Shown piece after piece: positions 4,396 through 41,557 of a DNA stretch of 41,557 bases. This DNA is from a virus. Location of the stretch: the IMG/VR virus record IMGVR_UViG_3300050498_000076, positions 1 through 41,557 of that record; one strand, written 5' to 3'. Below the pieces are notes generated by a model. The model was given only the letters and a program-made list of their open reading frames with translations, ran no database searches and was not told the DNA's origin. How positions within the stretch are numbered: position 1 is the stretch's first letter; each line of letters opens with the position of its first letter. The position numbers were made by a program, and so were the translations under genes.

Positions 4396-4399
4396 GCCA

Positions 4400-5651: not shown

Positions 5652-6623
5652 TTACGCAGATTGCAAGTTGTAAGCCCGACCGATGGCGCGTGGGTGGTTG
5701 ATATAAAGCCCGGCGCTTCCACGGACCACTGTGCGGTAATGGGTGCGGTTCTCCAGCAGGCCGACGTCGTCAGCGAATGGTTCTTCCTGGCACCAGCCAG
5801 CGACGTAGGGCTCCCCGAAGCGCACGACGAACAGGCTGCTCTTGGTGCTGCCGGTGAGTGCCGTTCCGTTGGCGAGTTCCGTGTCCGGCATGATCTGCGT
5901 GGTCTGATCGACCTTGCGCCCGATCTCCACGATTTTTGGGCCACCCTTGCCGTATGTTATGAACTGCCGACCGAGTTGGTCTGTCGTGGTGTCGAGCAGG
6001 TTGGATGATCGCATTGCGGATTGTGCTCGGCGATAGGTTTTCTTCCCCATGAATATGACCTTGTCTGCCGGGTTGCCATCGACCACGTCGAGCGTTTCGT
6101 CGATGACATCAAACAGCTTGTGCTGCCAGCTGGCGACTGCCGTGTCTGGTGAGATATCCAAGGCACCGGCGTCGATGGATTGCTCGGCGAGGAAATCGTT
6201 GATCAGTCGGTAGTGCAGTCCGACCAGACCGTCGACGTCCACTGCCGGTGATCCAAGGAAGAAGCTCTCGTTGAACTTGTACGCCACCCCTTTCATGATG
6301 GCTTCTTCCTGGGCGGCTCGAACGTCCACCAGGCTGTTGGCTTTGACGTACTCGTAGGGCACGTCGATCTTGGCTCCCATGAAGTAGAGTCTTTCCTCCT
6401 GGTCTTCGGGCTCTACCTTCAGATCAGTGAAGGCTGCGCCGACCTTGCGCCAGGGCACTTCCGGGATTTCGTTGAAGCGTTTGATCTTCTCTACGAGTTG
6501 ATCAGACGTTTTGAAGCTGAGGTCTTCCAGGATGGGGCTGGCTTCCCGCCAGGTCCTGATGACTGCAGCTGTGATGGGTGTCGCTGTGCGTTCGTAATCC
6601 GCCAGCGTGAATTCGTTTGCCAT
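5652..6623 (-). CDS. Major capsid protein (323 aa)
   Basis: Track ORF with RBS aaaGGAGcctgcacaATG. It follows a scaffold-like gene, and its size and composition are typical of HK97-fold capsid proteins. Family not verified by search. Confidence 0.72.
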   Translation of the reverse strand: MANEFTLADYERTATPITAAVIRTWREASPILEDLSFKTSDQLVEKIKRFNEIPEVPWRKVGAAFTDLKVEPEDQEERLYFMGAKIDVPYEYVKANSLVDVRAAQEEAIMKGVAYKFNESFFLGSPAVDVDGLVGLHYRLINDFLAEQSIDAGALDISPDTAVASWQHKLFDVIDETLDVVDGNPADKVIFMGKKTYRRAQSAMRSSNLLDTTTDQLGRQFITYGKGGPKIVEIGRKVDQTTQIMPDTELANGTALTGSTKSSLFVVRFGEPYVAGWCQEEPFADDVGLLENRTHYRTVVRGSAGLYINHPRAIGRAYNLQSA

Positions 6624-8219: not shown

Positions 8220-8356
8220 TTCTTCATGTGGTTGTCCCGCTCGCCTCTCTCAAAGAACCGTTTGTTGCACCACCAGCAGAACCAGGCCGCCGGTCTGATG
8301 GTTCCACCGATTCCCCTGATGACCTTTCCCTTTCGCACGCTGATGATCCTAACCAT
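8174..8356 (-). CDS. C2HC zinc-finger-like small protein (60 aa)
   Basis: Track ORF with ATG at 8356 preceded by aaaGGAGTAGCcaATG. Contains the pattern CWWCNKRFFERGERDNHMKKC (C-x2-C-x12-H-x4-C). It overlaps its neighbours by 8 and 46 nt. Confidence 0.55.
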   Translation of the reverse strand: MVRIISVRKGKVIRGIGGTIRPAAWFCWWCNKRFFERGERDNHMKKCPRRPPDTNAGATT

Positions 8357-18900: not shown

Positions 18901-21900
18901 GATCTTCTCCTTGAGCAGCTGCTTGGTCATGGCTGCGTTGCCTGCTGTGTCCGCCTGCTCTTGTGCGATCTCAGCTCGAGCCTGGGCTTCGGCGATCGTG
19001 CGGTTGCGTTCGTTGGCTTCCACTCGGGCCGCAGCTTCATCGGCGATGTTGCTGATGTGCTCGTTCCACGTGGTGCCATCATGCCTGGTTGCGTTCCCGA
19101 TCTCCGGGGGAAGCTCTCCCATCGTTTCATACATAGTCGCCAGGTCCCCTCGGTCAACCGCGGAGTTCAGTCTCTGCTCCCAGGCTGCCAGCTCGAACGC
19201 ACCGCCGTCGCCGGTGGTAGGATCTGCGGCTTCTTCTGCAGCGACCTTCTCGTAGTGGATGGCTGCGTCCCGCTCGATCGCCGGGTCGTAGTTGTGTCCC
19301 ATCGGGTAGATGTTCTCTCCGCTCCGGGCTCGCTGGATCATGGCTGTCAGCTGTGCCACTCCGCCGAGGTCGGTTGGGTTGTCGAGGTCGATCGGGTATC
19401 CGTCGTCGGCCAGCATCCTTGCCATCTCATCGATGCCGATCCCCTGCCTGGTAAATGCTCCGGGCATCCCACGTGGGTTGGGATCGCCGGTCAAGTCACG
19501 GGCCAGCGCCAGGGAGATTCCGCCGTGATTGCGGACGGCTCTGAGTAGCTTGGTGTTGTTGTCGATCGTGCGGTCGTTGCGTGATCGCCTGCCGGTGCCG
19601 GTGTCGACGGCTCGCTCTGCAGCTGCGGTTGCTTCGATGTCCTTCAGTTCGTTTCGCCTGGTCAGGATGCTGCTGATCCGCTCTGGTGTCAGGCGTGGGT
19701 CATCGAGCCCGGTCAAGTCCGGGATGCCGCCGTATGCTTCCTTCTTCAGGGCTCCTATCAAAGCGAACCGATCCTGCAGCACGTTGCGATCGTAGGGCAA
19801 TCCTACCCGGTTGAACTGCTCGGCTGCATCCCATACTGTGCTGACTCTGGTGGCTCGCTCTGCCTGCTCCTGTGCCTGGCGCTGCTCCGCTTCGGCGATC
19901 AGCTGGTTGCGTTCTTCTTCCAGGGTGGGCACGTCCCTGCGTTGTTCTTCGAGCCTGGTCAAGTTCTCAGCCTGGACGTTCTCCCTTGTGGGCCGGGTGG
20001 TCTGCTGGTACTCGCCTCGCAGCTGGTCGATCATCCCTTCGGCTGATGGTGCGGGTCCTGGTCCTGGCTGCGTGGGTCCACTGGGTAGTGCTGCTGTGCC
20101 GGTGGGTCCGGTGCCGCGTCGAACGATTCGCTCCAGTCGGCGGATGCCTTCCATGTTGATCCGTTCCAGCTCTGCGATCTGTGCGACCTTCTCTTGTCCA
20201 TAGTATTTGTACTTGGCTTGGGCTCTCTGGTCTTTGGTCATCCCCTCGAGAGACTTTCGGAACTTCCGTTCCCTGCTCACGATCTCATCGCTGAATCGGT
20301 TGGCGTCCTTCCACCATTTGCGTGCTGCTTCACCGGCTGCCGGTCCATGCATGTCGGTGTAGATGGTGGTCAGGCTCTCGCCGATGCGAGCGTCGTTGGC
20401 TTTCTTTGCTTCGAAGGCTTGGGAGAACCTGGTGTCGATCTCCTTCTGCAGCTCTGCCCAGGCTTTGTTGCTCTCGATGCTTCCTGCTCGATCGCCGGTG
20501 TACGTCTCGAAGAACGATCGGCGCTGCTCCCGCATGAAGCTGTAGGCGTCGCTCATCACCCGGTCGTTCTCTGCGATCGCAGCCAGCAGTCCACGTGCGG
20601 ACGGGTCGTTGCTCTTTCCCCAGGCTTCGAAGATGCCGAGGTAATTGGCGGCTGTGCGTGCGTTGATCCGCCTGAACTCCTCGCTGCTGATTCGGTAGGC
20701 TTCCTCGATGGCTCTGTTCTTAAGTGCCGTGTCCGGGACGTCTGCCAGGTCCTGGAAGATTTCGCCGAACCTATAGTAATGATCGAGCCAGGCGTCGGTG
20801 TATTTGCTGTTGACCTGCATGACCGTGTCGAGTGCGGCTGGTGCTCCTTCGAGTTCGACCTTGTTGGTCACGTTCTCTGCCATCGCTCGCAGGTCCCTGG
20901 CGGTCTGCATGTCGTTGTAATCCCTGGCGTGTTGGGCTGCCATCTTGAACGCACCACGGACCTGGTCCGGGGTCTGTGCCTTGGTCAGCGCATGATCTAA
21001 CGCGTCCAGCACACCGACCTTCTCCAGGAGTGTGGCTGCCTGGCTGGATGGGATGCCTACCTTCTGTGCGGCTTCGTTGATCAGCGTGCGGCTCATCATT
21101 CCCTGCTGCCTGCCAAAGATGAAGCGATCGATCTCCGGCTTGTTCATTCCGGCTTCTATCAAAGAGTAGATGGTGTTGGGGTTGATCCCTGCCTGCTCCA
21201 CCTGAGTGCGCAGCTGTGGGCTCATCTCCTGGAAGCCTACGCCTCGGCGCCAGGTCTTCGCCCATATATCTTTCATGGCGATCATGGTGCCGTGTTTGCT
21301 TTCGGTGCTCTCGAACCAGCTGCTGACTTTATTGAACGGCATTGCCTTGCCGATGTTGCTGACGATCCTTTGGGCTGCTCCGAGTGGTCCCCGTTGGTCC
21401 CCGCGTATAGCCATATCGATCGCCGATGTCTGGACACTCCCTCGTGTGGGTGCCATGTCCACTGCTCCGCCGATTCCCACTCCTTCTGATAAACGTGCAG
21501 GCTCCACTCCGAAGCGGGTCAGCCAGCTGTCGATCTGGTGTGGTGTCATGTACCCATAGATTCCGGTGGCGGCTCTGTGGACCATGTTGCTCAGTCCGTT
21601 CTGCAGTGCGTAGCCTGGGCTGCCGCCAAGCAGTAACACTGACTGTGCGCTCTTGAGTAGATGGGTCGTGCGGAAGAATGCTTTGCTCTCTGGCGTGTCC
21701 TTCCCTAAGCCTAACCGCTCGGCGGTCCACTCATCGAAGTGTGATCCGAGTGCATCCATCAGGCTGGCTTTCCATTGGTCCGGGTGCCAGTGCAGTGCTC
21801 CGGTGCCGGTGAACGCACCGACGATGTCTTGCAAGTGATCGGCTGTAAATCGACCAGCTTCGATCTCTCGCAGCAGATCCGCTCCGTCTTCACCGGCTGC

Positions 21901-24024
21901 CTGCAGTCGTTGGGTCAGGCGCTGCATGTCCTGGTCGGGTGTGCCTCGCTTCGCCAGGTCTTCTATCAACTTGCCAGGGTCTTCCCCTAGCACGTTTGAT
22001 ATCCGCATGAGCATGTCTCGCTTGGGTGCCGTCAGGTCCCATGCCTGGATCAATCCGTCCAGCTTCTCGATCTTGAAGTCCTTGAGGGCTGGCAGGATGG
22101 TGTACCACTCCGGGGATGCGGCTACCTTCCCGGCCATCTCTGACCAGAGTTTCATGTCGCCGTTGCTGACCGATCGGATCATCTTGCCGATCTCGTGCGG
22201 GTCTGCCATCGATGAGAGCAGCGTTCCGATGTTGTTGTAAAACATCGAGGCGCCTTCTCTTGCTCGGCTCTCTGGTGTGAGTGCTGCCCAGTCTTCCTTC
22301 AGCTTGCTCAAGAGTCCGGTTCGCTTGGCTGGTACGTCGAGCAGTCCGGTGTCGGTAAGTGGTCCGGCTTTGATCTGGTTCTTGCTGTTGATGCCTGCGA
22401 TCCACCGGCTGACGGGTCCCATCTGTTCGTATGAAAAGCCTGGCGCCACGTCGCCGGTCTGGACCAGGGTCTTGTATCTGCGTGCCGCTTCGAAGGGTGC
22501 GTTGGTTTCCATGAACGCACGTGCGGCTGTCTCGTTGCCCATCACCTTGGCGATGGAGAAGTTGATGGTGTTGGTGGCTTCCGGTAGCAGCTCCAGTGGA
22601 TCGATCGCTGCCTGCCCTGCAAAGTCGGCGATCTGTGCTCCGACGTACTGGCTGTGCTCGCCGAGCAGCTGGCGGACTACCACTCGTGGGTCTTCCCCTT
22701 TGATGATCGCATCGTGGATCGTGAGCCTGGCTTCTCTCAATAGCTCCGCGCTGTCGGTGACTCTGTATCGGTTCCCTGTGATCGGATTGATGGCGGTTGC
22801 CGTTGCCCTTTCTACTGGGGCGGCCTGTCCGAGGATGAAGTCTTCTCCTCCTTGTGCGAATTGGATGTTCTCCCGCTTCGCCACTGCCTTGATGTCTTCG
22901 ATCGATCTCACCCCTTGGGTGTCGCTCACTGCCATGATCAGTGCGATCGCTGGTATCCAGTTGCGTGCGCCCAGGAAATCTGACACCTCGTACGTTAGTC
23001 TGCCTGCTTCCCATGTCGCTTTGCGTGTCGCTTCATCCGTCAGCATTCGCTTGGCTGCTTCGGCTGCTTGCTCGTTGCCCTGCATCCCTGCGATCGCTGC
23101 GTCGAGGTATTGTGTTGCAAATCCCGCCGATTGCTCGGCTCCTTCAGACAGCTTATTAAGAACCGCCATCATACCTGCTGCGGTCGTGGGTTGATCAAGC
23201 ACTCCGCCTGTCGGGTCGTACTCTTGTCCGCCGATCAGGCCGAGCCCGTATCCCGCAGCTGCTCCTACTATGCGTCCAGGCACTCCAAAGATTCCACCGG
23301 CGTGCGCTCCTGCGAGTGCCATCGGGGATGCCATGATCTTTGGGTTGCTCATCAACTCGTAGTAGGTCTTCTGCCACTTAGGGACCCGGCTCCAGTTGAA
23401 GTTGGGGTCCTTCAGTATTTGATCTCGTGTCTCTACTGGGTATGCCGTGATATCAAACTGAGGGTTCTGCAGCAGCACCTTTCGTTGCTCGGTGCTCATG
23501 TCATCCCAGGCTGCTTCTCCCTGCTGCACTGCTTTGGGTGGTGCGAACGGTGACGCCTCGCCTGGTGGCTGCGCCTCCGGTGGTCCTTGTAAACTCTCCA
23601 GGTATGCGAGTGCTGGATCATCTCCGGGCAGGTACTTCCAGTCGGTCGGTGGTTTGCCGCCGTTGCGGAAGCTGTGCCAGTTGTATGCCTGCTCGATTGC
23701 CTTCTCTTGTCCCTGCATCCACGTCGGCAGGCTGATGTCCTTGGGCGTCGCTTTCAGGATCGCATATGCGTCGGCGACCTGGCGTGGGTCTTGACCGAAG
23801 TTCGGTGCGTATCCTAGCTGCCGTTCGAGTGCCTTCTTCGGACTGATGTAATTCTTTTGCATGTCCGGGGTCAGGCTGTTGTAATAATTGGCGTAGTGCT
23901 GCTGGTAATACTCGCTCGGCTTGACGTCTGGTGGATTGCGAATGTCGATCGGCACCGGCTTGGGTTGCTGGATCGTCACTGTCTGCTGCGGGATGTTCTT
24001 GGGTGGCTTCTTGATTGGAGGCAT
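9937..24024 (-). CDS. Giant multidomain ('polyvalent'-type) virion/ejection protein candidate (4,695 aa) containing a GGDEF domain, an HExxH motif and an internal module duplication
   Basis: Uninterrupted 14,088-nt track ORF with ATG at 24024. It follows portal and small internal-protein-like genes. Domain evidence is listed under separate features. Confidence 0.9.
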   Translation of the reverse strand: MPPIKKPPKNIPQQTVTIQQPKPVPIDIRNPPDVKPSEYYQQHYANYYNSLTPDMQKNYISPKKALERQLGYAPNFGQDPRQVADAYAILKATPKDISLPTWMQGQEKAIEQAYNWHSFRNGGKPPTDWKYLPGDDPALAYLESLQGPPEAQPPGEASPFAPPKAVQQGEAAWDDMSTEQRKVLLQNPQFDITAYPVETRDQILKDPNFNWSRVPKWQKTYYELMSNPKIMASPMALAGAHAGGIFGVPGRIVGAAAGYGLGLIGGQEYDPTGGVLDQPTTAAGMMAVLNKLSEGAEQSAGFATQYLDAAIAGMQGNEQAAEAAKRMLTDEATRKATWEAGRLTYEVSDFLGARNWIPAIALIMAVSDTQGVRSIEDIKAVAKRENIQFAQGGEDFILGQAAPVERATATAINPITGNRYRVTDSAELLREARLTIHDAIIKGEDPRVVVRQLLGEHSQYVGAQIADFAGQAAIDPLELLPEATNTINFSIAKVMGNETAARAFMETNAPFEAARRYKTLVQTGDVAPGFSYEQMGPVSRWIAGINSKNQIKAGPLTDTGLLDVPAKRTGLLSKLKEDWAALTPESRAREGASMFYNNIGTLLSSMADPHEIGKMIRSVSNGDMKLWSEMAGKVAASPEWYTILPALKDFKIEKLDGLIQAWDLTAPKRDMLMRISNVLGEDPGKLIEDLAKRGTPDQDMQRLTQRLQAAGEDGADLLREIEAGRFTADHLQDIVGAFTGTGALHWHPDQWKASLMDALGSHFDEWTAERLGLGKDTPESKAFFRTTHLLKSAQSVLLLGGSPGYALQNGLSNMVHRAATGIYGYMTPHQIDSWLTRFGVEPARLSEGVGIGGAVDMAPTRGSVQTSAIDMAIRGDQRGPLGAAQRIVSNIGKAMPFNKVSSWFESTESKHGTMIAMKDIWAKTWRRGVGFQEMSPQLRTQVEQAGINPNTIYSLIEAGMNKPEIDRFIFGRQQGMMSRTLINEAAQKVGIPSSQAATLLEKVGVLDALDHALTKAQTPDQVRGAFKMAAQHARDYNDMQTARDLRAMAENVTNKVELEGAPAALDTVMQVNSKYTDAWLDHYYRFGEIFQDLADVPDTALKNRAIEEAYRISSEEFRRINARTAANYLGIFEAWGKSNDPSARGLLAAIAENDRVMSDAYSFMREQRRSFFETYTGDRAGSIESNKAWAELQKEIDTRFSQAFEAKKANDARIGESLTTIYTDMHGPAAGEAARKWWKDANRFSDEIVSRERKFRKSLEGMTKDQRAQAKYKYYGQEKVAQIAELERINMEGIRRLERIVRRGTGPTGTAALPSGPTQPGPGPAPSAEGMIDQLRGEYQQTTRPTRENVQAENLTRLEEQRRDVPTLEEERNQLIAEAEQRQAQEQAERATRVSTVWDAAEQFNRVGLPYDRNVLQDRFALIGALKKEAYGGIPDLTGLDDPRLTPERISSILTRRNELKDIEATAAAERAVDTGTGRRSRNDRTIDNNTKLLRAVRNHGGISLALARDLTGDPNPRGMPGAFTRQGIGIDEMARMLADDGYPIDLDNPTDLGGVAQLTAMIQRARSGENIYPMGHNYDPAIERDAAIHYEKVAAEEAADPTTGDGGAFELAAWEQRLNSAVDRGDLATMYETMGELPPEIGNATRHDGTTWNEHISNIADEAAARVEANERNRTIAEAQARAEIAQEQADTAGNAAMTKQLLKEKIIQEMGLPVEQAEAYMTISDAVATWYSNVTGEDQANFYARYYEDIRKAASDEGLLKQTGEAPVWYTKSEQAITAIRQETMTVDQLRGMLQKAGIKAEEMQWTGLNDFLAERTGKITKAEVQEVLDANRMEMTEIVKGGGNEPDPDVVIDAAFDNLNEQHGWRTQAARMSRKGYELDAFVDDEGSLQFGWHDAKAEGDIITSDEMPPGDIQRTAVKMEMTLEREYRYQTQSRRESDSPTKYHSYTLPGDHTNYQEVLFTMPGKRPDTLPATTTMKQTMLNGRQVYQYWDGDQVVGAGPTPMDAHASALEHYRANPPAKYQSSHWDEPNVLAHTRLTDRVDADGKRVLMVEEIQSDWHQAGRQKGYKRELSVDEQAELNFLQDQANNGWEELPENNSYMDLMGEFEKKYRDEQGRQLAWRYELDADEEARYNAARQASEQAEQVAQARLDELQKGTSGVEPAPFQKTWHEMVMKRILRKAADEGYDRVAWTTGEQQADRYNLAKQVDHIDSSMNPDGTYNIDAVKGRQTLLNREGLTPEQLADTIGKDLAEKIVAADHSQAATHRWEGENLKVGGEGMKGFYDQMLPSWVNKYAKKWGAQVSGTQLTKTVEAYRVRRSDGSYVDWEGEVQTYTSRREAAKKAEWFNGTVEPVQLTQEAGTVHSLDVTPEMRQAVMEGQPLFQIQPINRSLTSDETSFYAQALVRQGAKHVGHALQAESTLGARRQIIDAVYKLDPKMAEAVARQNIDLLFQRDPDAYYQTWLEEARASYKPTKRTDWTKRAIETFGATEYDPNSPLTALWLTPEGKLIALEEHGVIAEVMGPGEGAYRGDEFANETGSVHWWVSPDETNIDLVNTVPTAAQLKVIRQILKDHPSDMITFDIRDANGESLVSDRALATPSGINKIAQIAKKVFESNEPSKAIPSMQRAIDEFQFQDMGAAPKGAVQFGPDGIKATILAFERADVSTVIHENAHIYRRVMTDVVARTGNEQVRADLQVIEQWAGVRDGVWHRAAEEKYARAFERYITEGKAPTPALRKAFEAMRDWMLGIYKVITGSAIDVKIAPEVKAAFDRMLGAEDPRASYKKPIDVTSEIAARTEMHLAELRQGTPPSPEMLEQVGIGNIWYTKAEQTITAWRQEVMTIDQLKGVLQKAGIRADEMKWSGLDDLLKTRTGKITKAEVMDVLNTHRIDIKEVKKGKGSTDIDMQEIAERTWEKLETDSGWQLYKQALEEQGFTHDTDPDDPMRQIFTDLDGKVYGLGSMPERARRYANDMSRIYGTTWNFHVEEATRNRTGGATKYQNYTLPGGENYREILYTMPTPPIKAPTELPALAAPRQYGPEDWRVHYNGELLGIGDTETEARTMALESLARNERPGGEVLYKSSHWEEPNVLAHTRLTDRVDADGKRVLMVEEIQSDWHQAGRQKGYRDPEIDRARQAQKAQVDQLGLDYFNIEKDLAYRIMEWNKTDEAKTTWIRARDGTLLYEGTDKKQAFLIKRENAGSYEDFNAAMQYPQDILDDQARAQEIYRQWDAEKVKMEALPETGPISQAPFQKTWHELVMKRILRMAAEEGYERVAWTTGKQQAERYNLSKQVDYIASWRKPDGTYNIEAIKQDQTLLDRQGLTPEQVEEIVGKDLATKITESPDTSNEWRDADLEVGGEGMKGFYDKMLPAWADKYGKKWGAQVGETTVGTPELLDLPERHALVTPDVLRRAAEMEPDEVMSDLLRKQADFVEDGGFLDSSYVTPGLRGTEQTKKLVNFYSSEGNRVHSIDVTPAMKKSVMEGQPLFQRAEPEMIDHINHRKWYRTALPGAEAIQERGTFYASSYAEAEFYGRPIDEPFDVNVSNPLVGDEITIMQTLGIEPPDMINSIDDRFALDAKMKKAAQAQGYDAIAVLTEPAFDRYKTTGRMPRSIELNVLDDTHTMTQGNAQTVSQAIKAFGLTPVFEDAGFILADGRMLDFNRTSDDMRYHAEIAELWPDQFDQADLETTDVYAPAIDKFVNEAKAIRLSADYKETSLQIGGPLTEAQTRLLRRSIGNDVNHQLHVDIRRPDGTSLSLQGDASPTGFRQLMKQIREATGEQSTLYQFEGREALQQSADRRNTAAARLREIWDKLDATERTEARDWLLNKTLTDPLSGLETVVALGIDSKPDGWLEATSDLNGLTAINNTFGHEAGDQIITGIGRVAKTEIERVGGRAFRKGGDEFVYWFPDEATAKDALAAIDRQVAELEFEIGGKKRTGFSVSYGIGEDLAAADVQLYADKQRRIETGQRPPKGQRDTMPPSVRLVGEAPLGTMDNASSFRADSEWMDEGYRNHVQPLLDAMQDVAINKLQTERPLDGAMKDVSPAGQKMLRDYVSQVQSDMGAVKNSTIKWGESQRDFAMLNYQRRYGFDRHLESVAPYEFYYTRSLLTWAMRGLDKPTWYANYARIRNMQDKHERDISERLRGKFKIAAPWMPDWMGDALYIDPMQMLFAPANFLRPIEAMRRDKNMQVIETERILQEMAADGSAQQDQVAAAAASQSGALWERASAEAAQRREAEISNPFDFMATMFGPAWYLSTPLNMMGIEVPGISKGDRNKVTNLPLTNTARAIETVTQGTWAEPIGQLIGLAGKPEQWARKKLNLPEFGEYGNYYIDRQLANMVAEGLITSDQAQTTMIERQGELFEQARQRVKMELAMKTPLAGTIYAATHEGAIAGTQAFLPSLFGSQLLPAGELEYRGLKGEWNEAWKKADNGDKDAINQFFDDHPEYEAYLAKGKEPQDRLRSFMIGNIWDAYMALGDTNRKAATAQLGDEFQRSFLDTETRDMESIPVETLTQWAQMLGTMIPRTEQTAPIIDVPQAQQPALNLYDPSVTAITDSFYTQRREKFPEYYMLEQGYYSLAKSDRAAYLLKFPKLDAYWKWRDLEYYKKYPVLKPILQGKVFKQVDTSTWPDGLEQFVVLYAATGKKLGKGATLAMQQVWLKEGQPYGDFQTWLDAQVVPAMLYQQPAAAGPIQ
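12125..12525 (-). other. GGDEF (diguanylate-cyclase-type) domain-coding segment of the giant gene (about aa 3834-3967)
   Basis: The translation reads SDLNGLTAINNTFGHEAGDQIITGIGRV...GGRAFRKGGDEFVYWF. GGDEF itself is encoded at 12307..12321. The metal-binding Asp, the N of INN and the D of GD (PleD N335/D344 equivalents, aligned by eye) are present. No RxxD I-site precedes GGDEF. Confidence 0.8.
13555..15560 (-). repeat. Internal module copy A of the giant gene (about aa 2822-3490)
   Basis: Paralogous to 16860..18740. The two share WYTK(S/A)EQ..I.., a 40-aa identical block (EPNVLAHTRLTDRVDADGKRVLMVEEIQSDWHQAGRQKGY), APFQKTWHE.VMKRILR, GGEGMKGFYD.MLP and VMEGQPLFQ. Confidence 0.75.
15994..16008 (-). 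other. HExxH (HENAH) zincin-like motif in the inter-module segment of the giant gene
   Basis: The translation reads STVIHENAHIYRRVM (aa 2673-2677). This is a motif only; the fold is not verified. Confidence 0.35.
16860..18740 (-). repeat. Internal module copy B of the giant gene (about aa 1762-2389)
   Basis: See copy A. The 134-nt stretches 14638..14771 and 17812..17945 differ at about 8 positions by my count. Confidence 0.75.
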
Positions 24025-24192: not shown

Positions 24193-24957
24193 TCACTCGC
24201 CGTAGTTCCATGAGTTGAGCCCAAGGTAAAAGTTGGGATTGTTCGGCTGGTAGCCATAGCCACCACCCCACCCACCGCCACCGCCTTTGGGCTTCCACTT
24301 CCCTCCCCAGTTCGATCCGTACGATGATCCGAAGCCCATTGGCTCGGTCAGCGATTCCAATACCGGGAAGTAGGGTTGCCCGACGTTGACCCCTCCACTG
24401 CCTGATAAGAATGACCCGGTGGGATAAACTGCCGGGTTGGTCGGTGGTTGATAGATCGATCCGTCGTTCATGATCGTGCCGCCTCCGCCGATAACTGATC
24501 CGGTCGGGATTGGTTGTGTGGGTGCCATCCCCGGATATTGTCCGGGTTGAAGCAGGTCTGCGTACCAGGGTGTTGCGGGTCCAGTTCCTTGCCAGCCACC
24601 ACCACCGGCTGGCTGGTGATCCTTGGGGCGTTTCTTCTTCACCGGCACTCCAGCTGGTACGACTGCTGGTGCGTTGGTCGGCGTGTAGGTCGGCAGGTTC
24701 AGCGAAGGTGATGGGTTGTAGCTTCCACCGTAGGCTGGTCCGGGTGGGTGCTGCCACCACTGCAGCGATTGCCCTGTGCCGTAGTGACCCTTCTTGCCGA
24801 TCGGCTGCTGCCTGATTCGTTTGTTCGTGCTGCTGCTGTTCAGTGGTGGTGTTGGTTTGTTTCGTACTCCAGGAGGCATTGGTATCTCCAGTGTGCTCAC
24901 GGCTATCAGTATGGCTGCGAGCAACAATAAAAAGATTGGGTCGAGTTTCTTTCTCAT
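24193..24957 (-). CDS. Signal-anchored Gly/Pro/aromatic-rich low-complexity protein (254 aa from ATG 24957)
   Basis: The track ORF runs 24193..25044. The internal ATG at 24957 gives ATGA coupling and starts MRKKLDPIFLLLLAAILIAVS (a hydrophobic signal/anchor). The C-terminus reads WGGKWKPKGGGGGWGGGYGYQPNNPNFY. Confidence 0.62.
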   Translation of the reverse strand: MRKKLDPIFLLLLAAILIAVSTLEIPMPPGVRNKPTPPLNSSSTNKRIRQQPIGKKGHYGTGQSLQWWQHPPGPAYGGSYNPSPSLNLPTYTPTNAPAVVPAGVPVKKKRPKDHQPAGGGGWQGTGPATPWYADLLQPGQYPGMAPTQPIPTGSVIGGGGTIMNDGSIYQPPTNPAVYPTGSFLSGSGGVNVGQPYFPVLESLTEPMGFGSSYGSNWGGKWKPKGGGGGWGGGYGYQPNNPNFYLGLNSWNYGE

Positions 24958-25163
24958 GTTTGGATCATCTCCATGATCTTGGCGTAGGTCTTTGGTAGTT
25001 GTTGTTTCACCATCTCTTTCTGGTCTGGCGGCATGGTCATCCATCTCAATGCCAGCGCACTGACCATCATCGGCGCCGCCAGGTCCTGTTTGAATTCTTC
25101 GACGATCTCCATTGCGATCGCCTGCACTTCCAGCTTGATATCGGTTAGGTCGAGGTCGCTCAT
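24954..25163 (-). CDS. Small hypothetical protein (69 aa)
   Basis: This is the C-terminal part of track ORF 24954..25439. ATG 25163 forms ATGA overlaps with both neighbours. The upstream part of the track ORF is off-frame over the 163-aa gene. Confidence 0.6.
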   Translation of the reverse strand: MSDLDLTDIKLEVQAIAMEIVEEFKQDLAAPMMVSALALRWMTMPPDQKEMVKQQLPKTYAKIMEMIQT

Positions 25164-25651
25164 TGTGCGGCTCCTGACTTGAGTGGTGGTATGCGATTCG
25201 ATTCGAGCAGCTGCCTGGTCACTTCTTCTCGCCGAGCCATCAGCTGTGTCATCTCTGTCTGGCTCGCCTGCAGGTTGACGATGATCGTGTTCATCTGGCC
25301 TAGCTGCTCCTTCAGTGTTTCGTTGATCGGCACTCGCTTTGCCAGGTCCCGCATGGTGTCCAGCTGCGTGGTCGCCGACGTGAGTTGTGCGTCCCGCTCC
25401 TTCAGTCGATCCTGCATCTGCTCCACGTGCCGCTGGCATTCGACGTTGGCTCTCTGGAGTGCGACGTTCTCCTGGTAGAGTTCATCGTTCCGGTCTTGCA
25501 GCTTCTTCAGTGAGTCTGTGAACTTAGTGATCGCATCGGCATCGGCTGCTCCGCTCTGTGACTTGGCCAGCCTGCGTGCGTTCAGCCAGCTCATGGCGCC
25601 GCCGATAAATGTGAGCACTCCAATGATTAGGGTTACGGTCGATGGGTCCAT
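25160..25651 (-). CDS. N-terminal TM plus coiled-coil protein (163 aa; internal virion or envelope-acting candidate)
   Basis: Track ORF with a hydrophobic N-terminus (VTLIIGVLTFIGGAMSWL) followed by heptad-like Q/E/L-rich sequence. Confidence 0.68.
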   Translation of the reverse strand: MDPSTVTLIIGVLTFIGGAMSWLNARRLAKSQSGAADADAITKFTDSLKKLQDRNDELYQENVALQRANVECQRHVEQMQDRLKERDAQLTSATTQLDTMRDLAKRVPINETLKEQLGQMNTIIVNLQASQTEMTQLMARREEVTRQLLESNRIPPLKSGAAQ

Positions 25652-26217
25652 TTGCTTATGTTCTCCGTAAAGACCGCGAGCAGCTCCGGGTTGTACTTGT
25701 CGTGGTCCTTGATCAACTGCTCCATTGCTCGCTCGTGGGTGAAGGTCGGGTGGTAGCTGCGGACCTCGGTCAGCGCATCGTATGTGTCGACGATGTGGAC
25801 GATCATGGCGGCGTGTGAGATGTTGCTCTCTCGTGCGTGGTCCGGGTATCCGCTGCCGTTGTAGTTCTCGTGGTGGTGCCGGATGATGTCCAGGATCATG
25901 GCGTCGAGCCTGGCTTCGCTTGCGAGGGTGTATCCAAGCATCGCATGCTGTCTCATAACTACCAGCTCGATCGGCGCCAGCTTGCCGGTCTTGTTAAGGA
26001 TGGCTTCCGGGATCGATGCCTTGCCGAGGTCATGCAGTGCGGCGCCCACGTCCAGCATCTCCAGCTGGTTGCTGTTCATCCCGATCGTGCGGCCAAACTC
26101 GACGGCGATCTGTCGGACCCGATCTCCGTGTTCGTGGCTGTAGGTTTCCCTCTGCCTGCTCAGTTGTCCCATCATGCGGATGATCAGCTCGTGATCGACC
26201 TTGACCTTGCTGTTCAT
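25633..26217 (-). CDS. Stand-alone HD-GYP domain phosphodiesterase (194 aa)
   Basis: All hallmark motifs are present: SHEHGDRV, LHDLGK, PIELVVMRQHAMLGY, HHHENYNGSGYP and IVDTYDALTEVRSY. Its ATG overlaps the portal stop (ATGA). Confidence 0.9.
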   Translation of the reverse strand: MNSKVKVDHELIIRMMGQLSRQRETYSHEHGDRVRQIAVEFGRTIGMNSNQLEMLDVGAALHDLGKASIPEAILNKTGKLAPIELVVMRQHAMLGYTLASEARLDAMILDIIRHHHENYNGSGYPDHARESNISHAAMIVHIVDTYDALTEVRSYHPTFTHERAMEQLIKDHDKYNPELLAVFTENISKWTHRP

Positions 26218-27932
26218 GGAAGCGGCTGCTCTCCTGGCATCGGCATCGGTCCACCCATTGGCGCCTGGATCATGTTCGGTTGTCCCTGTGCCATTGATGG
26301 ATCGATCATCGGCTGCCCATTCTCCTGCTGCTGAAGCATCGCCTCATCTGGTGGTGCCGCCTGGGGACCTGGTGGTATCGCCGGTGGTGGTGGTGCTGCA
26401 GGGGGTTTGCGTAGTGCGACGGCGATCATCTCCTGCATGAAGCCTGGGTCAGCCAGCATCGCCTGGATCATGGTCTTGAGCATCTGCTCCTTGACGACTT
26501 GCTTGCGCATGGCATCGCTGTCGCCGATCTGCAGCAGGTTCGTGTGCTTCCATTCATCGCTGACCAGGTCGCCGAGGTTCGCAGCCACTTGTGCGTTGCG
26601 CAGGTCGTCCTGTGGTAGCTTCGGCTTCATCGTCACGATGATGATGTAATCGTCCGGGATGTCTGCTGCCGCCAGGATCGGGTGATCGATCCCTTCGTAT
26701 TTCACTCGGCAGAGTATGTGATCGAAGATGTCCCGGAAGGCTCCTTCGATTGCTTCCTTCGGGTCTTCGAGTGGTAGGGTTCCTGCGCTGCTCATCATTG
26801 CCAGTCCGCTAAAGGTTGACCCCTCGACCGCCTGTCCGAGTGTCTGCTTGTAGATGGTGCTGTCGTTGTTGACTGCATCGAGTATCTCTTTGATCCGCAT
26901 CGTGTCGCCGTCCACCACTGGGAAGTTGGTCGCCTGTGCCTTGGCGAATATCTTCCGCACGCCTCCGGTGTAGTCGATCTTCAGGGCCTGGTCGGCTCCT
27001 TGTAAACTCTCCGGGTCCACCAATAGCAGCGGTCCGGGTAAGCCCTGGACAAAGAGTGCCGTGAAAAGGTAGGTATAAAACAGGTTCTCTCGGCGATCCC
27101 ACTCCCCTTTGGTGTGTGCATATAGGAAGCTCTGCGAGAACTTGTCGCTCTCATTCCATAGGCTAGTGCCGCCTGCAAACCTGGCGGCGATGTTGATTGA
27201 GTCCATCATGTGCGGCTTGGCTATCAGCGTTTCCCGTCTGCCTTCGATCCATGCCACCCGGTTGGTGCGATCGATCCAGTCCCATATCCAATAGCTACTC
27301 TTGGCGCTCAGTCCGTCGACTCCCCACCGTTCTTCGATGGCCGGTCCACTCAGCTTGTACTTGCGCAGGTGTGCGCTCATTCCGAACTCTCCCCATCGGC
27401 TGAACGATTCGCTGGCGTTGAGTGCTTTGAGTAGGAAGGGTGTGTGCAGTCCGATCTTCTGCAGGTACTTCTTTTGGGCTGCGTCCTTCTGCACTGTGAT
27501 CAAGTCATCGACCTTCTCGGCTGCGATCACTGCCGGTCCGTATAACGTTGCCGATAGGTTGAGGTCCTTCTCCACTCGTGCTCGGCGCATCATCCCGGAC
27601 TGGTCCAGGATTTGTTTGAGTGCTCGCTCGATCCGGTTGCTGTTGGGATGGGTGTCGCCGCTGGCATCGGTGATCGTGATGTGGATTTCACTGGTGTCGA
27701 GCAGTCGCTTCATGCCGGTGACTGCGTTGCGTCCTGTTGGGCTGATCGTCACCTTCCAGTCGTTGTCATCGATGTTGTTGCCTCGTGGCTTTTCGTTGGC
27801 GGTCATGAAGTAGATTTCTTCGTACCGCTTATAGAGATCGGTCAGTCGTTGGTGACTCTCGCCAGTGGTCAGGCGTTGTGCTTCGGCTTTGACCTTGGTG
27901 ATCTCGTCTTGGGGTAGGGTGGTGTCTGGCAT
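26214..27932 (-). CDS. Portal protein (572 aa) with a Pro/Gln-rich C-terminal tail
   Basis: Track ORF immediately downstream of TerL, with a size typical of portals. Family not verified by search. Confidence 0.7.
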   Translation of the reverse strand: MPDTTLPQDEITKVKAEAQRLTTGESHQRLTDLYKRYEEIYFMTANEKPRGNNIDDNDWKVTISPTGRNAVTGMKRLLDTSEIHITITDASGDTHPNSNRIERALKQILDQSGMMRRARVEKDLNLSATLYGPAVIAAEKVDDLITVQKDAAQKKYLQKIGLHTPFLLKALNASESFSRWGEFGMSAHLRKYKLSGPAIEERWGVDGLSAKSSYWIWDWIDRTNRVAWIEGRRETLIAKPHMMDSINIAARFAGGTSLWNESDKFSQSFLYAHTKGEWDRRENLFYTYLFTALFVQGLPGPLLLVDPESLQGADQALKIDYTGGVRKIFAKAQATNFPVVDGDTMRIKEILDAVNNDSTIYKQTLGQAVEGSTFSGLAMMSSAGTLPLEDPKEAIEGAFRDIFDHILCRVKYEGIDHPILAAADIPDDYIIIVTMKPKLPQDDLRNAQVAANLGDLVSDEWKHTNLLQIGDSDAMRKQVVKEQMLKTMIQAMLADPGFMQEMIAVALRKPPAAPPPPAIPPGPQAAPPDEAMLQQQENGQPMIDPSMAQGQPNMIQAPMGGPMPMPGEQPLP

Positions 27933-27933
27933 A

Positions 27934-29352
27934 TCAGATTCCTTTCACGGCTCTGCCTGGGTGTGTGCTCCGTCTGTCCTGGCCGCCTGGTGCTGGCGGT
28001 GGTGTGTCGGTGCGCTTCTGGTTGGTGAACAAGTACCGGCACGTATCGTAGGCGTGGTCTTCGGCGGTGGTGTCGACGTCCTCGACGTTGATCGTGTCGT
28101 GCGCCAGGGTGGATAGCTGCTCGATCAAGTTCACGCATGTGCTAAAGACGACCATGCCTGGCTCGCCGTTGGGCAGATCCGCCAGCGCATCATCGATCTT
28201 CCGTTTGCCTGAGATGCGGTCGTTGTCTGCCCTGGTCAGGTAGACCTTGTTGTCTTTGTAGATGTCGTTTGCCGATGTGATCTTGGCTGCTGAGTTCTTC
28301 CGCTGCCACATCGCCGGGTCGCCGTAGTGGATGCTGATCACTTCGTTCGGCGGTGTCATCTCCTTGATCATCTCGGCTTGCTGTGTGAGTGTGAGCCCTG
28401 GTTGGTAGGCTTCCCTGTAAACGATCACCTGTCTGGTGTTCGGGTTGCGTGCTGCCCATAGTGTGCAGAATGGTGCCGTCGTTCCTTCGTCGGTTGCTCT
28501 CCACTTGAACCAGGTGTCCGGTATTTCGTGCGGCTCTACCACGTGGCGCTCGTAGTCCCATCCTGGGAATGCCATGCCTGCGAACGCATCCCAGTCTGCA
28601 TCTCGCCAGGCTTTGCCTCGTGGTCCCTTCAACCCTTCCAGCCAGCGGATGTACTCGGCGTGCAGGAATGGGTTGTCCTTGTAGGTCACGTTGAAGAAGC
28701 GGGTCCACTTCTCCCGGTGCTCTCGGGCCGGGATCACAAATGCCTTCTTGAACCAGAGCAGTCCTGGTCCGTCTGCGTTGGTGGTCAGGTACATCCGAGC
28801 ACGCCAGTCTGACCTGGTTGTGCGCAGGCTGCCTCGGATGTTCTCCTTCTTATCTTCTGGCAGCTGCGTGGCTTCTTCGACGGCGATGCCATCGTATTCC
28901 AAGCCCAGGTATTTATCGATGTCCCTGGCGTTGTTGTATCCGCCGATCACGATCCGGCTGCCGTTGGGGAACTCCACTCCTTCGGCGGTCGCTTTGTGTG
29001 GTGTGAATCGGAAGACCTTCCGGGTCAAGTCGTCCAGGCTTTCGGCTGCCGACTTCATGACCTTCCTTAAGAATAGGAACTTCAATCCATCGCGGCGCTG
29101 GCAGTCATCAAGTCCTACTTGTGCCAGGCTTGCAAATGATTTGCCTGGTCCCCGGCTCCCACCCATTGCGATCTCGTCGGGTCCGTCTTCCTGGTCGGCT
29201 TCCCTGGCTGCTGCGTGGAAGGGCATCATGCTCTGCAGCACGACGCAGCCTCCTATAATGAACCGCTCGATCTGATCTCTCGGCATCTCTGCTTCGGCTG
29301 CCGCCTGGACCATTCGAAGGATGCGCTCGTCAGCTTGGATGGTTGGCTGCAT
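27934..29352 (-). CDS. terL: Terminase large subunit (472 aa)
   Basis: Walker A (GGSRGPGKS) and Walker-B-like (GIAVEEAT) motifs. It follows a TerS-like gene and precedes portal. Confidence 0.85.
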   Translation of the reverse strand: MQPTIQADERILRMVQAAAEAEMPRDQIERFIIGGCVVLQSMMPFHAAAREADQEDGPDEIAMGGSRGPGKSFASLAQVGLDDCQRRDGLKFLFLRKVMKSAAESLDDLTRKVFRFTPHKATAEGVEFPNGSRIVIGGYNNARDIDKYLGLEYDGIAVEEATQLPEDKKENIRGSLRTTRSDWRARMYLTTNADGPGLLWFKKAFVIPAREHREKWTRFFNVTYKDNPFLHAEYIRWLEGLKGPRGKAWRDADWDAFAGMAFPGWDYERHVVEPHEIPDTWFKWRATDEGTTAPFCTLWAARNPNTRQVIVYREAYQPGLTLTQQAEMIKEMTPPNEVISIHYGDPAMWQRKNSAAKITSANDIYKDNKVYLTRADNDRISGKRKIDDALADLPNGEPGMVVFSTCVNLIEQLSTLAHDTINVEDVDTTAEDHAYDTCRYLFTNQKRTDTPPPAPGGQDRRSTHPGRAVKGI

Positions 29353-41525: not shown

Positions 41526-41557
41526 GAAGCTCTTTTCGAAGAACTTCTGCAGCTTGG
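41526..41557. repeat. 32-nt terminal redundancy, identical to 1..32 (circular closure / assembly overlap)
   Basis: gaagctcttttcgaagaacttctgcagcttgg is present at both window ends. Confidence 0.9.

What the first reader, a model, noticed from the sequence alone, without database searches (positions are those of the whole stretch)
25633..26217. Stand-alone HD-GYP phosphodiesterase gene translationally coupled to the portal gene
The 194-aa product carries every HD-GYP hallmark (H..H, HDLGK, HHHE..GSGYP, D.YDAL...R.Y). It has no receiver or sensor domain.

Its ATG overlaps the portal stop. It is followed by small TM/coiled-coil proteins and the giant protein, which is where podoviruses usually encode internal or ejected virion proteins. 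Together with the GGDEF domain at 12125..12525, the phage has both halves of a cyclic-dinucleotide make/break pair inside its late/virion module.

Two non-exclusive hypotheses:
- The phage rewires host c-di-GMP. In cyanobacteria c-di-GMP controls type IV pili, motility and aggregation, so this could affect receptor display or superinfection.
- The enzyme hydrolyses cyclic-dinucleotide immune signals. Some HD-GYP enzymes (Vibrio V-cGAPs) cleave 3'3'-cGAMP, so this could be an anti-CBASS-like function.

I am not aware of this arrangement being described for a phage structural module.
Basis: partly seen in the sequence, partly recalled or inferred. Interest (0 to 1): 0.85.

Follow-up and report, generated by a model that had tools for sequence, protein, structure and literature searches.

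The report
Phage-borne stand-alone HD-GYP phosphodiesterase gene
An uncultured 41.5-kb phage, probably of Chloroflexota rather than cyanobacteria, carries a sensor-less enzyme of the family that destroys bacterial cyclic-dinucleotide signals, as an accessory gene next to its portal gene; this is rare in phages but not a new kind of thing.

Summary
ORF 25633..26217 (-) encodes a 194-aa single-domain HD-GYP protein (Pfam HD_5, E=2.6e-29). The AlphaFold model has pLDDT 91 and TM 0.80-0.85 to solved HD-GYP structures. Its ATG overlaps the portal stop (ATGA). Seven of eight PmGH metal ligands and the GYP loop are intact. Three positions deviate: E185->Y (the Y/F subfamily, predicted binuclear), D183->E, and the guanine-reading Rxx(K/R) is RxxH.

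Comparison with about 40 related phages shows it is not a core virion gene. HD-GYP plus a 163-aa TM/coiled-coil ORF form a 1,050-nt insertion at a variable junction between the portal and a conserved 69-aa gene. Both cellular-genome hits for this portal are Chloroflexota, so the cyanobacterial framing is unsupported.

The giant protein is a polyvalent-type protein with a canonical GGDEF domain. That arrangement was described in 2017. Phage HD-GYPs were predicted as counter-defence enzymes in 2021, and a 2026 preprint showed one degrading 3'3'-cGAMP.

Most likely this is a constitutive late-expressed cyclic-dinucleotide phosphodiesterase. Anti-CBASS-type signal erasure (about 0.4) and c-di-GMP control linked to the phage's own GGDEF (about 0.3) cannot be separated in silico. 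New member of a known kind; interest 0.5.

The parts
25633..26217 (-). Stand-alone HD-GYP phosphodiesterase gene (194 aa)
   Evidence: Pfam HD_5 E=2.6e-29. Best PDB sequence match is PmGH 4mcw, E=1.7e-23. AF2 pLDDT 91.4. Foldseek TM 0.85 to the c-di-GMP-bound DvhD HD-GYP.
26214..26217 (-). ATGA overlap of the portal stop and the HD-GYP start
   Evidence: Read directly from the sequence.
26214..27932 (-). Portal protein gene (572 aa)
   Evidence: Follows TerL. 10 of 28 homologues hit PF05133 SPP1_portal.
27934..29352 (-). Large terminase gene
   Evidence: Pfam Terminase_3 and Terminase_6N; phrog_2 E=7e-36.
25160..25651 (-). p163: N-terminal TM helix plus coiled coil. Second gene of the lineage-specific insertion; overlaps HD-GYP by 19 nt.
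   Evidence: No homologue in any related locus. Only phrog_1009, of unknown function.
24954..25163 (-). p69: conserved small acidic protein that abuts the portal gene in most relatives
   Evidence: phmmer hits in more than 45 related loci. Junction analysis.
24193..24957 (-). p254: TM helix plus Gly/Pro-rich protein, semi-conserved
9937..24024 (-). Giant 4695-aa polyvalent-type protein
   Evidence: Positional counterparts in relatives carry ART-PolyVal, LPD3 or SNF2-type helicase domains.
12178..12447 (-). GGDEF domain within the giant protein
   Evidence: Pfam E=6.4e-10. Aligns to PleD 325-418 with the metal Asp, the guanine-reading N and D, and GGDEF all kept.
5652..6623 (-). Major capsid protein gene; shows that the structural module continues past the giant gene
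   Evidence: phrog_212 E=6.8e-28.

Best explanation
The gene encodes a catalytically competent, constitutively active (sensor-less) HD-GYP phosphodiesterase for 3'3'-linked cyclic dinucleotides. It is an accessory cargo gene, not a virion component. Together with p163 it was inserted at a variable junction between the portal gene and the conserved p69 gene. It is made in the cytoplasm along with the late and structural proteins, by read-through and translational coupling.

Its most likely job is to erase host cyclic-dinucleotide signals while virions are assembled. I favour immune (CBASS-type) signals such as 3'3'-cGAMP over housekeeping c-di-GMP.

Shown: family membership, fold, ligand set, gene arrangement, accessory status.
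Inferred: catalytic activity, substrate, timing, biological role.
For: Enzyme identity:
- HD_5 at 102.6 bits.
- H30, H62/D63, H91, H115/H116 and D144 match 7 of the 8 PmGH ligands. K66, D147, G123-Y124-P125 and R153 are also kept (residue roles from PMC4159591).
- Model pLDDT 91.4. The top Foldseek hits are all HD-GYP structures.

Accessory status:
- The 1,050-nt insert is absent from 41 of 48 related loci. Other relatives hold unrelated genes at the same junction.

Operon:
- Overlaps of 4, 19, 4 and 4 nt, and no promoter-like or terminator-like site on the minus strand across 23.5-30.5 kb.

Counter-defence reading:
- HD-GYPs of jumbo phages were predicted to be counter-nucleotide enzymes (PMC7824862).
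- A relative with 63% portal identity carries an Acb2/Tad1-hairpin gene (E=9e-21) beside its terminase genes, so this phage family appears to face cyclic-nucleotide immunity.
- The guanine-reading Rxx(K/R) is RxxH here, against K or R in 119 of the 120 nearest homologues. A change at this position (RxxQ) reprogrammes PmxA from c-di-GMP to cGAMP (bioRxiv 10.1101/600031).
Against: - No activity data exist for this protein.
- The closest sequence and structure matches are c-di-GMP enzymes.
- RxxH is not the validated RxxQ/N signature. It occurs in about 5% of HD-GYP motifs in my sample, including cellular stand-alone proteins of Nitrosomonas. V-cGAPs cleave cGAMP while keeping R at that position.
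- D183, whose alanine mutant is inactive in PmGH, is E24 here.
- The same phage carries a canonical c-di-GMP-type GGDEF domain, which argues that c-di-GMP is the relevant molecule.
- No CBASS system has been shown in the unknown host.
- The sigma-70 consensus scan may not apply to Chloroflexota.
Confidence: 0.4

Rival explanations
1. It is a c-di-GMP phosphodiesterase that works on host c-di-GMP or on the product of the phage's own GGDEF domain. One version is a make/break pair: the polyvalent protein's cyclase raises c-di-GMP after delivery, and the late-expressed HD-GYP clears it. Another version is insulation: HD-GYP protects the producing cell from c-di-GMP made by newly synthesised giant protein before it is packaged.
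For: - The best matches are c-di-GMP enzymes: PmGH, PA4781 and c-di-GMP-bound DvhD.
- The GGDEF domain keeps the metal Asp, the guanine-specific N and D, the GGDEF motif and the C-terminal K/R.
- GGDEF-bearing giants occur in four lineages. Three of them carry HD-GYP or DUF5662 in the same late module (window; L007; L066/L065). None of at least 7 relatives with fully read GGDEF-less giants does. By my own Fisher arithmetic this is about p=0.02, uncorrected for phylogeny.
- The nearest cellular stand-alone HD-GYPs sit three genes from a small GGDEF gene.
Against: - Rxx(K/R), which reads guanine O6/N7, is altered to RxxH.
- DUF5662 could not be shown to be an HD-fold or phosphodiesterase protein. 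It also occurs in unrelated phages without GGDEF, so the co-occurrence is weak.
- L063/L064 have a GGDEF giant but no such gene within the 20 kb read.
- Pfam found no PilZ or other c-di-GMP receptor among the window ORFs scanned.
Confidence: 0.3
2. It is a packaged, ejected virion enzyme delivered with the DNA, as proposed for effector domains fused to MuF or portal proteins.
For: - It lies between the portal gene and the polyvalent giant protein and is translationally coupled to the portal.
- Iyer et al. 2017 describe phosphoesterase domains fused to MuF or portal proteins and predict that they are injected.
Against: - It is not fused to any structural domain.
- It is absent from 41 of 48 related loci at this junction.
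- The related phage L014 keeps its HD-GYP in the small-gene region 4.5 kb upstream of the portal.
- No signal or capsid-targeting feature was identified.
Confidence: 0.07
3. It is not a cyclic-dinucleotide hydrolase in vivo. It could be a degenerate binder or protein-protein regulator, or an HD hydrolase acting on linear pGpG/pApG, 2',3'-cNMP or another nucleotide.
For: - Y/F-subfamily enzymes are predicted to be binuclear.
- D183->E and K317->H depart from the consensus.
- Catalytically inactive HD-GYPs that act through protein-protein interactions are known (bioRxiv 10.1101/2021.11.05.467447).
Against: - All seven ligands shared by both HD-GYP subfamilies are kept, together with K66, D147 and an intact GYP loop.
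- The gene is identical in all five fetched contigs, from five sample accessions.
Confidence: 0.12

Closest known systems
PmGH (Persephonella marina HD-GYP c-di-GMP phosphodiesterase, PDB 4MCW)
   Same: Best PDB sequence match (E=1.7e-23, residues 3-189). Same fold (TM 0.82). Seven of eight metal ligands, K225, D308, the GYP loop and R314 are conserved.
   Different: No GAF sensor domain. E185->Y26 puts it in the Y/F subfamily, predicted binuclear rather than tri-iron. D183->E24. K317->H156.
V-cGAP3 / PmxA (HD-GYP enzymes that degrade 3'3'-cGAMP)
   Same: HD-GYP domain. V-cGAP3 also has Tyr at the E185 position. Like PmxA, it has a non-canonical fourth residue in RxxX.
   Different: Single domain of 194 aa. 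V-cGAP3 has a tandem pseudo-HD-GYP plus HD-GYP, and PmxA has Cache-HAMP-HD-GYP. The residue here is H, not the tested Q/N. Foldseek TM to 5z7c is only 0.67.
Phage HD-GYPs: jumbo-phage HD-GYPs (Iyer et al. 2021) and 'Ph-HD-GYP-2' (bioRxiv 10.64898/2026.07.21.739742)
   Same: Virus-encoded HD-GYP with a GYP loop. The proposed role is erasure of cyclic-nucleotide immune signals, shown for one member.
   Different: This one is in a 41.5-kb genome rather than a jumbo phage. It is inserted in the packaging/structural operon and co-resident with a GGDEF-bearing polyvalent protein. There is no BFVD structural neighbour at E<=1e-3.
Acb1 / Apyc1 (phage anti-CBASS and anti-Pycsar nucleases) and Acb2/Tad1 sponges
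   Same: Possible functional analogy: a small, unregulated phage protein that removes immune nucleotide signals. A related phage carries an Acb2/Tad1-hairpin gene.
   Different: Unrelated folds (2H, MBL and sponge proteins versus HD). No homology.
Polyvalent proteins with GGDEF (Iyer et al. 2017; Acetonema longum prophage protein WP_004096050.1)
   Same: A giant multi-domain phage protein, encoded next to portal and terminase genes, that contains GGDEF. It is predicted to be packaged and injected.
   Different: In the window protein only GGDEF is recognised by Pfam. ART-PolyVal, LPD3 and helicase domains are seen in its relatives. A separate HD-GYP gene in the same operon was not described there: 'HD-GYP' occurs 0 times in that paper.
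184-aa stand-alone HD-GYP family of Anaerolineales
   Same: Nearest cellular relatives (about 41% identity). Same single-domain architecture and Chloroflexota origin.
   Different: These are chromosomal housekeeping genes with canonical RxxR/K and His at the E185 position. The phage protein is alone in its 50%-identity cluster among 1.84 billion representatives.

Membership tests
HD-GYP domain (Pfam PF13487 HD_5) | Profile match above the curated threshold over the whole domain | tested here: met
   102.6 bits against a cut-off of 27.2; profile positions 9-170 of 170.
HD-GYP domain (Pfam PF13487 HD_5) | The seven metal ligands shared by both subfamilies (H189, H221, D222, H250, H276, H277, D305 of PmGH) | tested here: met
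   H30, H62, D63, H91, H115, H116 and D144, from the phmmer alignment to 4mcw and the 50-sequence MAFFT alignment. Ligand list from PMC4159591.
HD-GYP domain (Pfam PF13487 HD_5) | HHExx(D/N)GxGYP motif | tested here: met
   H115-H-E-N-Y-N-G-S-G-Y-P125. N at the D/N position occurs in 22 of 120 homologues.
HD-GYP domain (Pfam PF13487 HD_5) | HD-GYP fold | tested here: met
   pLDDT 91.4. The top 14 Foldseek PDB hits are all HD-GYP structures, TM 0.66-0.85.
HD-GYP trinuclear (E/D-T-G) subfamily | Carboxylate ligand equivalent to PmGH E185 | tested here: not met
   Y26 aligns with E185, so the protein belongs to the Y/F subfamily, predicted binuclear.
Canonical c-di-GMP-specific HD-GYP | Rxx(K/R) guanine-recognition motif (R314/K317 of PmGH) | tested here: not met
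   R153-S-Y-H156. K or R in 119 of the 120 nearest homologues. H in 12 of 260 motifs in the wider set.
Canonical c-di-GMP-specific HD-GYP | Catalytic pair D183/K225 | tested here: inconclusive
   K66 is kept. D183 is E24, a conservative change at a near-invariant Asp.
cGAMP-specific HD-GYP (GAP, PmxA type) | Rxx(Q/N) signature residue | tested here: not met
   The residue is His. It is non-canonical but is not the validated Q/N.
cGAMP-specific HD-GYP (GAP, PmxA type) | Preferential hydrolysis of 3'3'-cGAMP | not testable with these tools
   Needs enzymology.
Phage counter-defence nucleotide-degrading enzymes (functional class) | Rescue of the phage from CBASS or another nucleotide-signalling defence | not testable with these tools
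   Only circumstantial evidence: accessory status, literature precedent, and an Acb2/Tad1-hairpin gene in a relative.
Internal / ejected virion proteins | Conserved component of the structural module across relatives | tested here: not met
   Absent at the portal|p69 junction in 41 of 48 related loci. L014 has its HD-GYP elsewhere.
Internal / ejected virion proteins | Presence in purified virions | not testable with these tools
   Needs virion mass spectrometry.
SPP1 Gp6-like portal (upstream ORF) | Profile match to PF05133 | tested here: inconclusive
   The window protein has no hit at E<=0.01. 10 of 28 homologues at 40-65% identity do (best E=9e-7). It lies directly after TerL.
Diguanylate cyclase GGDEF (domain in the giant protein) | GG(D/E)EF active site, metal Asp, and guanine-specific N and D | tested here: met
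   SDLNGLTAINNTFGHEAGD...RKGGDEF aligns to PleD 325-418. No RxxD I-site. The segment between the DPLSGL motif and the metal Asp is shorter than in the GGDEF domains I know, and profile positions 1-38 are unmatched.
HD superfamily (for DUF5662, the gene at the same slot in relatives) | HD fold or a significant profile match | tested here: not met
   hhalign against the HD-GYP alignment: E=0.006, probability 6%. A confident model (pLDDT 94.9) has no Foldseek PDB hit better than E=2.3.

The most novel reading that the evidence does not exclude
The phage runs its own second-messenger pulse. A diguanylate cyclase domain delivered inside the virion on the polyvalent protein raises c-di-GMP, or makes a decoy or competitor dinucleotide, at entry. 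A separately encoded, late-expressed, base-specificity-shifted HD-GYP then either clears that product or selectively removes host immune dinucleotides while sparing the phage's own signal. This would be a virus-encoded writer/eraser pair with temporal separation, recurrently assembled in this Chloroflexota phage family.
Probability: 0.15. Interest if true: 0.75.

Novelty: new member of a known kind. Interest (0 to 1): 0.5.

Why it matters
HD-GYP enzymes are very rare in viruses.
- A 2026 structural survey of about 350,000 viral proteins found two with a GYP loop.
- BFVD holds no structural neighbour at E<=1e-3.
- Only 29 of 50,697 phage records match. Twenty-eight of those are unannotated 'Bacteriophage sp.' contigs from human faecal samples.

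This gene adds a compact 194-aa, sensor-less representative from a small genome of an uncultured, probably Chloroflexota-infecting phage family. It has a natural RxxH variant at the residue known to set c-di-GMP versus cGAMP preference, and a GGDEF cyclase domain in the same phage. It is therefore a convenient test case for two questions:
- Which residues tune HD-GYP base specificity?
- Do phages use cyclase/phosphodiesterase pairs, or only erasers, against nucleotide-based immunity?

It also documents an accessory-gene hot spot at the portal|p69 junction in this phage family.

Tried and rejected
1. Cultured relatives. Megablast of 24-30 kb and tblastn of the portal against 50,697 phage records found nothing. 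TerL and MCP reach only 28-34% identity.

2. Is DUF5662, which fills the same slot in L007 and L012 and follows the GGDEF giant in L066, another HD phosphohydrolase? Its H...HD.SK...HH...HHPEH...D motifs suggested so. However, hhalign gave E=0.006 at 6% probability, a PDB profile search found nothing, and a pLDDT-95 model had no Foldseek hit. I dropped the claim. DUF5662 also occurs in unrelated phages without GGDEF.

3. Alternative register E24-x3-H28, which would restore the E185 ligand. Rejected, because the 50-sequence alignment places H30 on the invariant His and Y26 on the Y/H/E column without indels.

4. RxxH as a phage-specific innovation. Rejected. It is a minority variant of about 5% that is also found in cellular proteins.

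5. Traces of the insertion event. No flanking repeats of note. GC content is the same as the rest of the genome.

6. Selection analysis. The fetched contigs are nearly clonal, with 0 differences in the gene.

7. PADLOC gave only generic HD (Cas3/Cas10) and coiled-coil noise.

8. No promoter-like or terminator-like site on the coding strand near the gene.

9. No PilZ or other c-di-GMP receptor, and no Acb/Tad homologue, was found by Pfam among the window ORFs scanned.
Full report
OBSERVATION

The minus-strand ORF 25633..26217 encodes 194 aa. Its ATG shares ATGA with the stop of the upstream 572-aa ORF 26214..27932.

Pfam gives HD_5, the HD-GYP model, at E=2.6e-29 (102.6 bits, cut-off 27.2). The match spans residues 22-179, and no other domain is found. 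NCBIfam's best match is the HD-GYP half of a response-regulator c-di-GMP phosphodiesterase. This is far beyond chance, and the gene has no sensor or receiver domain.

The window's first and last 32 nt are identical. The same phage was assembled as differently permuted contigs of 39.0-41.7 kb from five sample accessions. The window is therefore a complete circular-assembling genome of about 41.5 kb.

RESIDUE-LEVEL CHECK

The best solved relative is PmGH (4mcw, E=1.7e-23), followed by V-cGAP3, DvhD, PA4781 and Bd1817. I used the roles assigned by Bellini et al. (PMC4159591), the phmmer alignment and a 50-sequence MAFFT alignment.

Conserved positions (PmGH -> this protein):
- H189 -> H30
- H221/D222 -> H62/D63
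- K225 -> K66
- H250 -> H91
- H276/H277 -> H115/H116
- G284-Y-P -> G123-Y-P125
- D305 -> D144
- D308 -> D147
- R314 -> R153

Three positions differ:
- E185 -> Y26. This places the protein in the Y/F subfamily, which Bellini et al. predict to be binuclear. V-cGAP3 also has Tyr here.
- D183 -> E24.
- K317 -> H156.

The last change alters the Rxx(K/R) motif that hydrogen-bonds a guanine of c-di-GMP. In PmxA an RxxQ at this position gives cGAMP selectivity, and Q518R reverts the enzyme to c-di-GMP (bioRxiv 10.1101/600031).

Among the 120 nearest homologues, 119 have K or R and only the phage protein has H. In a wider set, H occurs in 12 of 260 motifs, including 203-206-aa stand-alone proteins of Nitrosomonas. 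RxxH is thus a minority natural variant, not a phage invention, and its effect on specificity is untested.

STRUCTURE

AlphaFold2 with the 50-sequence alignment gave pLDDT 91.4 and pTM 0.88. The leading Foldseek PDB hits are HD-GYP structures:
- c-di-GMP-bound DvhD, TM 0.85
- PA4781, TM 0.80
- PmGH, TM 0.82
- Bd1817, TM 0.71

The c-di-AMP enzyme PgpH and V-cGAP3 follow. Against BFVD viral models, nothing reaches E<=1e-3.

HOW UNUSUAL IS THE PROTEIN?

- The word-indexed search of 5.8 billion proteins found 7,936 homologues, but none above about 42% identity apart from the protein itself.
- An exhaustive phmmer search of 1.84 billion representatives found 101,675 HD-GYP proteins. The phage protein is alone in its 50% cluster, and the best single-domain identity is 46% or less.
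- The nearest family is a 184-aa stand-alone HD-GYP of Anaerolineales. It sits in ordinary chromosomal context, three genes from a 164-aa GGDEF gene.
- Among 50,697 phage records, 29 match. Twenty-eight are unannotated 'Bacteriophage sp.' contigs from human faecal samples. The other is the V-cGAP3-like gene of the 274-kb Microcystis phage MaAM05.

CONTEXT IN THE WINDOW

All credible genes are on the minus strand. The order is:
- a ParB-like/N6_N4 DNA methyltransferase
- a 183-aa HTH protein
- TerL
- portal
- HD-GYP
- p163 (TM helix plus coiled coil)
- p69
- p254 (TM helix plus Gly/Pro-rich)
- the 4695-aa protein
- small ORFs and a D12 methyltransferase-like ORF
- the major capsid protein at 5652..6623
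- tail-side genes

From portal to p254 the genes overlap by 4, 19, 4 and 4 nt. No sigma-70-like promoter or intrinsic-terminator-like site lies on the coding strand between 23.5 and 30.5 kb. The HD-GYP is therefore most simply a late, co-translated product.

COMPARATIVE GENOMICS

The portal has 168 homologues, and ten of 28 sampled hit PF05133. I fetched 48 related loci.

The canonical order is TerL - portal - p69 - a protein of about 250 aa - a giant protein of 2,200-4,800 aa. In 41 of the 48 loci the portal stop abuts p69. Something is inserted only in:
- the window phage: HD-GYP plus p163, 1,050 nt. p163 has no homologue in any relative.
- L007 and L012: a DUF5662 gene.
- L008/L009, L016/L051 and L041: small unknown ORFs.

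So the HD-GYP is cargo in a hot spot, not a conserved virion component.

A second family member, L014/L057 (43% portal identity), has its own 188-aa stand-alone HD-GYP (38% identical, canonical RSYR). That gene sits 4.5 kb upstream of the portal among small genes. The enzyme has thus been recruited at least twice in this family, at different places.

HOST

The single scan of 185,579 species genomes returned two hits, both Chloroflexota:
- a groundwater Chloroflexi MAG, where the portal locus sits on a 248-kb contig with a phage-integrase gene 6 kb away
- an Anaerolineales MAG

Together with the Anaerolineales affinity of the HD-GYP, this points to Chloroflexota. Nothing points to cyanobacteria beyond HD-GYP response regulators of Leptolyngbya-like cyanobacteria at 35-38% identity among thousands of hits.

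THE GIANT PROTEIN AND GGDEF

Counterparts of the giant protein in relatives carry ART-PolyVal, LPD3 and SNF2-type helicase domains. This identifies the class as the 'polyvalent proteins' of Iyer et al. 2017. Those authors predict that such proteins are packaged and injected, and they already noted GGDEF domains in them (PMC5512222).

The window's GGDEF (residues 3860-3949) keeps the metal Asp, the guanine-specific Asn and Asp, and GGDEF. It lacks an RxxD I-site.

Homologous GGDEF segments (about 59% identity) occur in the giants of L007, L016/L066/L065 and L063/L064. Three of these four lineages carry HD-GYP or DUF5662 in the late module. In L066 the DUF5662 gene directly follows the giant. 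None of at least seven relatives with fully read GGDEF-less giants does.

That looked like a cyclase/hydrolase pairing, but it is weak for four reasons:
- DUF5662 could not be shown to be an HD enzyme: hhalign probability 6%, and no Foldseek hit for a pLDDT-95 model.
- DUF5662 occurs in unrelated phages without GGDEF.
- L063 is an exception.
- The numbers are small and not phylogenetically independent.

LITERATURE

- Iyer et al. 2021 list HD-GYP enzymes in jumbo phages as predicted counter-nucleotide defences (PMC7824862).
- A July 2026 preprint found only two GYP-loop proteins among viral structures. It showed that one phage HD-GYP blocks 3'3'-cGAMP-driven STING signalling and degrades 3'3'- but not 2'3'-cGAMP (10.64898/2026.07.21.739742).
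- HD-GYPs are rarely stand-alone, and they are prevalent in Chloroflexi (bioRxiv 10.1101/2021.11.05.467447).
- I found no paper describing a phage with both an HD-GYP gene and a GGDEF polyvalent protein, within the limits of the searchable library.

MECHANISM

Shown:
- family membership, fold and ligand set
- absence of regulatory domains
- operon position
- accessory status
- co-resident GGDEF

Inferred:
- The protein is an unregulated metal-dependent phosphodiesterase, made late in the cytoplasm, that opens 3'3' cyclic dinucleotides.

I rank immune-signal erasure first, at about 0.4, because of:
- the precedent
- the hot-spot location
- the Acb2/Tad1-hairpin gene (E=9e-21) in a relative with 63% portal identity
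- the non-canonical base-reading residue

I rank c-di-GMP control second, at about 0.3, either of host signalling or of the phage's own cyclase product. The remaining readings are a packaged enzyme (about 0.07) and a non-CDN or non-catalytic role (about 0.12).

VERDICT

The sequence observation is confirmed.

This is a new, divergent member of a known but very sparsely populated kind, phage HD-GYP phosphodiesterases. The co-resident virion GGDEF domain and the RxxH variant are testable extras. Interest 0.5.

Noticed in passing
window 9937-24024 (-); repeats at nt 16864-18744 and 13552-15573: The 4695-aa giant protein contains a large internal duplication: residues 1761-2387 against 2818-3491, 42% identity over 694 columns. 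Pfam recognises nothing there. phrog_9880 and an 'endolysin' PHROG hit fall in the first copy.
   Followed up: partly
window 33721-34344 (-): A 207-aa phage protein with a ribosome modulation factor (RMF) domain at residues 71-111 (Pfam E=5.8e-8, above threshold). This could be a phage-encoded ribosome-hibernation-type factor.
   Followed up: no
L007:5938-6405, L012:3682-4134, L066:12978-13511: DUF5662, a His/Asp-rich all-helical protein of 150-177 aa, occupies the same portal|p69 slot in two relatives and directly follows a GGDEF-bearing giant in a third. A confident AF2 model (pLDDT 94.9) has no PDB structural neighbour, so it may be an uncharacterised metalloprotein fold. No paper in the searched library mentions it.
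   Followed up: partly
L014:4941-5507 (= L057; IMGVR_UViG_3300018059_000023): A second phage of the family (43% portal identity) has an independent 188-aa stand-alone HD-GYP (38% identical, canonical RxxR). It sits among small genes 4.5 kb upstream of the portal.
   Followed up: partly
L008:7409-7618: A relative with 63% portal identity encodes a 69-aa Acb2/Tad1-hairpin protein (E=9e-21) two genes upstream of its small terminase. This is a likely cyclic-nucleotide sponge in the same phage family.
   Followed up: partly
L010/L061 (JACRBI010000004.1, 247,810 bp): A member of this phage family lies on a 248-kb contig of a groundwater Chloroflexi MAG, with a phage-integrase gene 6 kb from the portal. 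This is evidence for a temperate lifestyle and a Chloroflexota host for at least part of the family.
   Followed up: partly
window 1-32 and 41526-41557: The first and last 32 nt of the window are identical. Contigs from other samples are circularly permuted. The window is a complete genome of about 41,525 bp.
   Followed up: yes
L073:1051-1545 and 4119-4673; L075:5122-5616 and 8001-8555: In Anaerolineales chromosomes the nearest stand-alone HD-GYP (184 aa) lies in a conserved neighbourhood with a sensor-less 164-aa GGDEF gene and homogentisate-pathway genes. This could be a minimal cellular make/break pair.
   Followed up: no
window 29892-31316 (-) and 8349-9062 (-): There are two DNA methyltransferase-type genes. 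One is a ParB-like/N6_N4 methyltransferase fusion upstream of the terminase genes. The other is a D12-class fragment-like ORF between the giant gene and the capsid gene.
   Followed up: no
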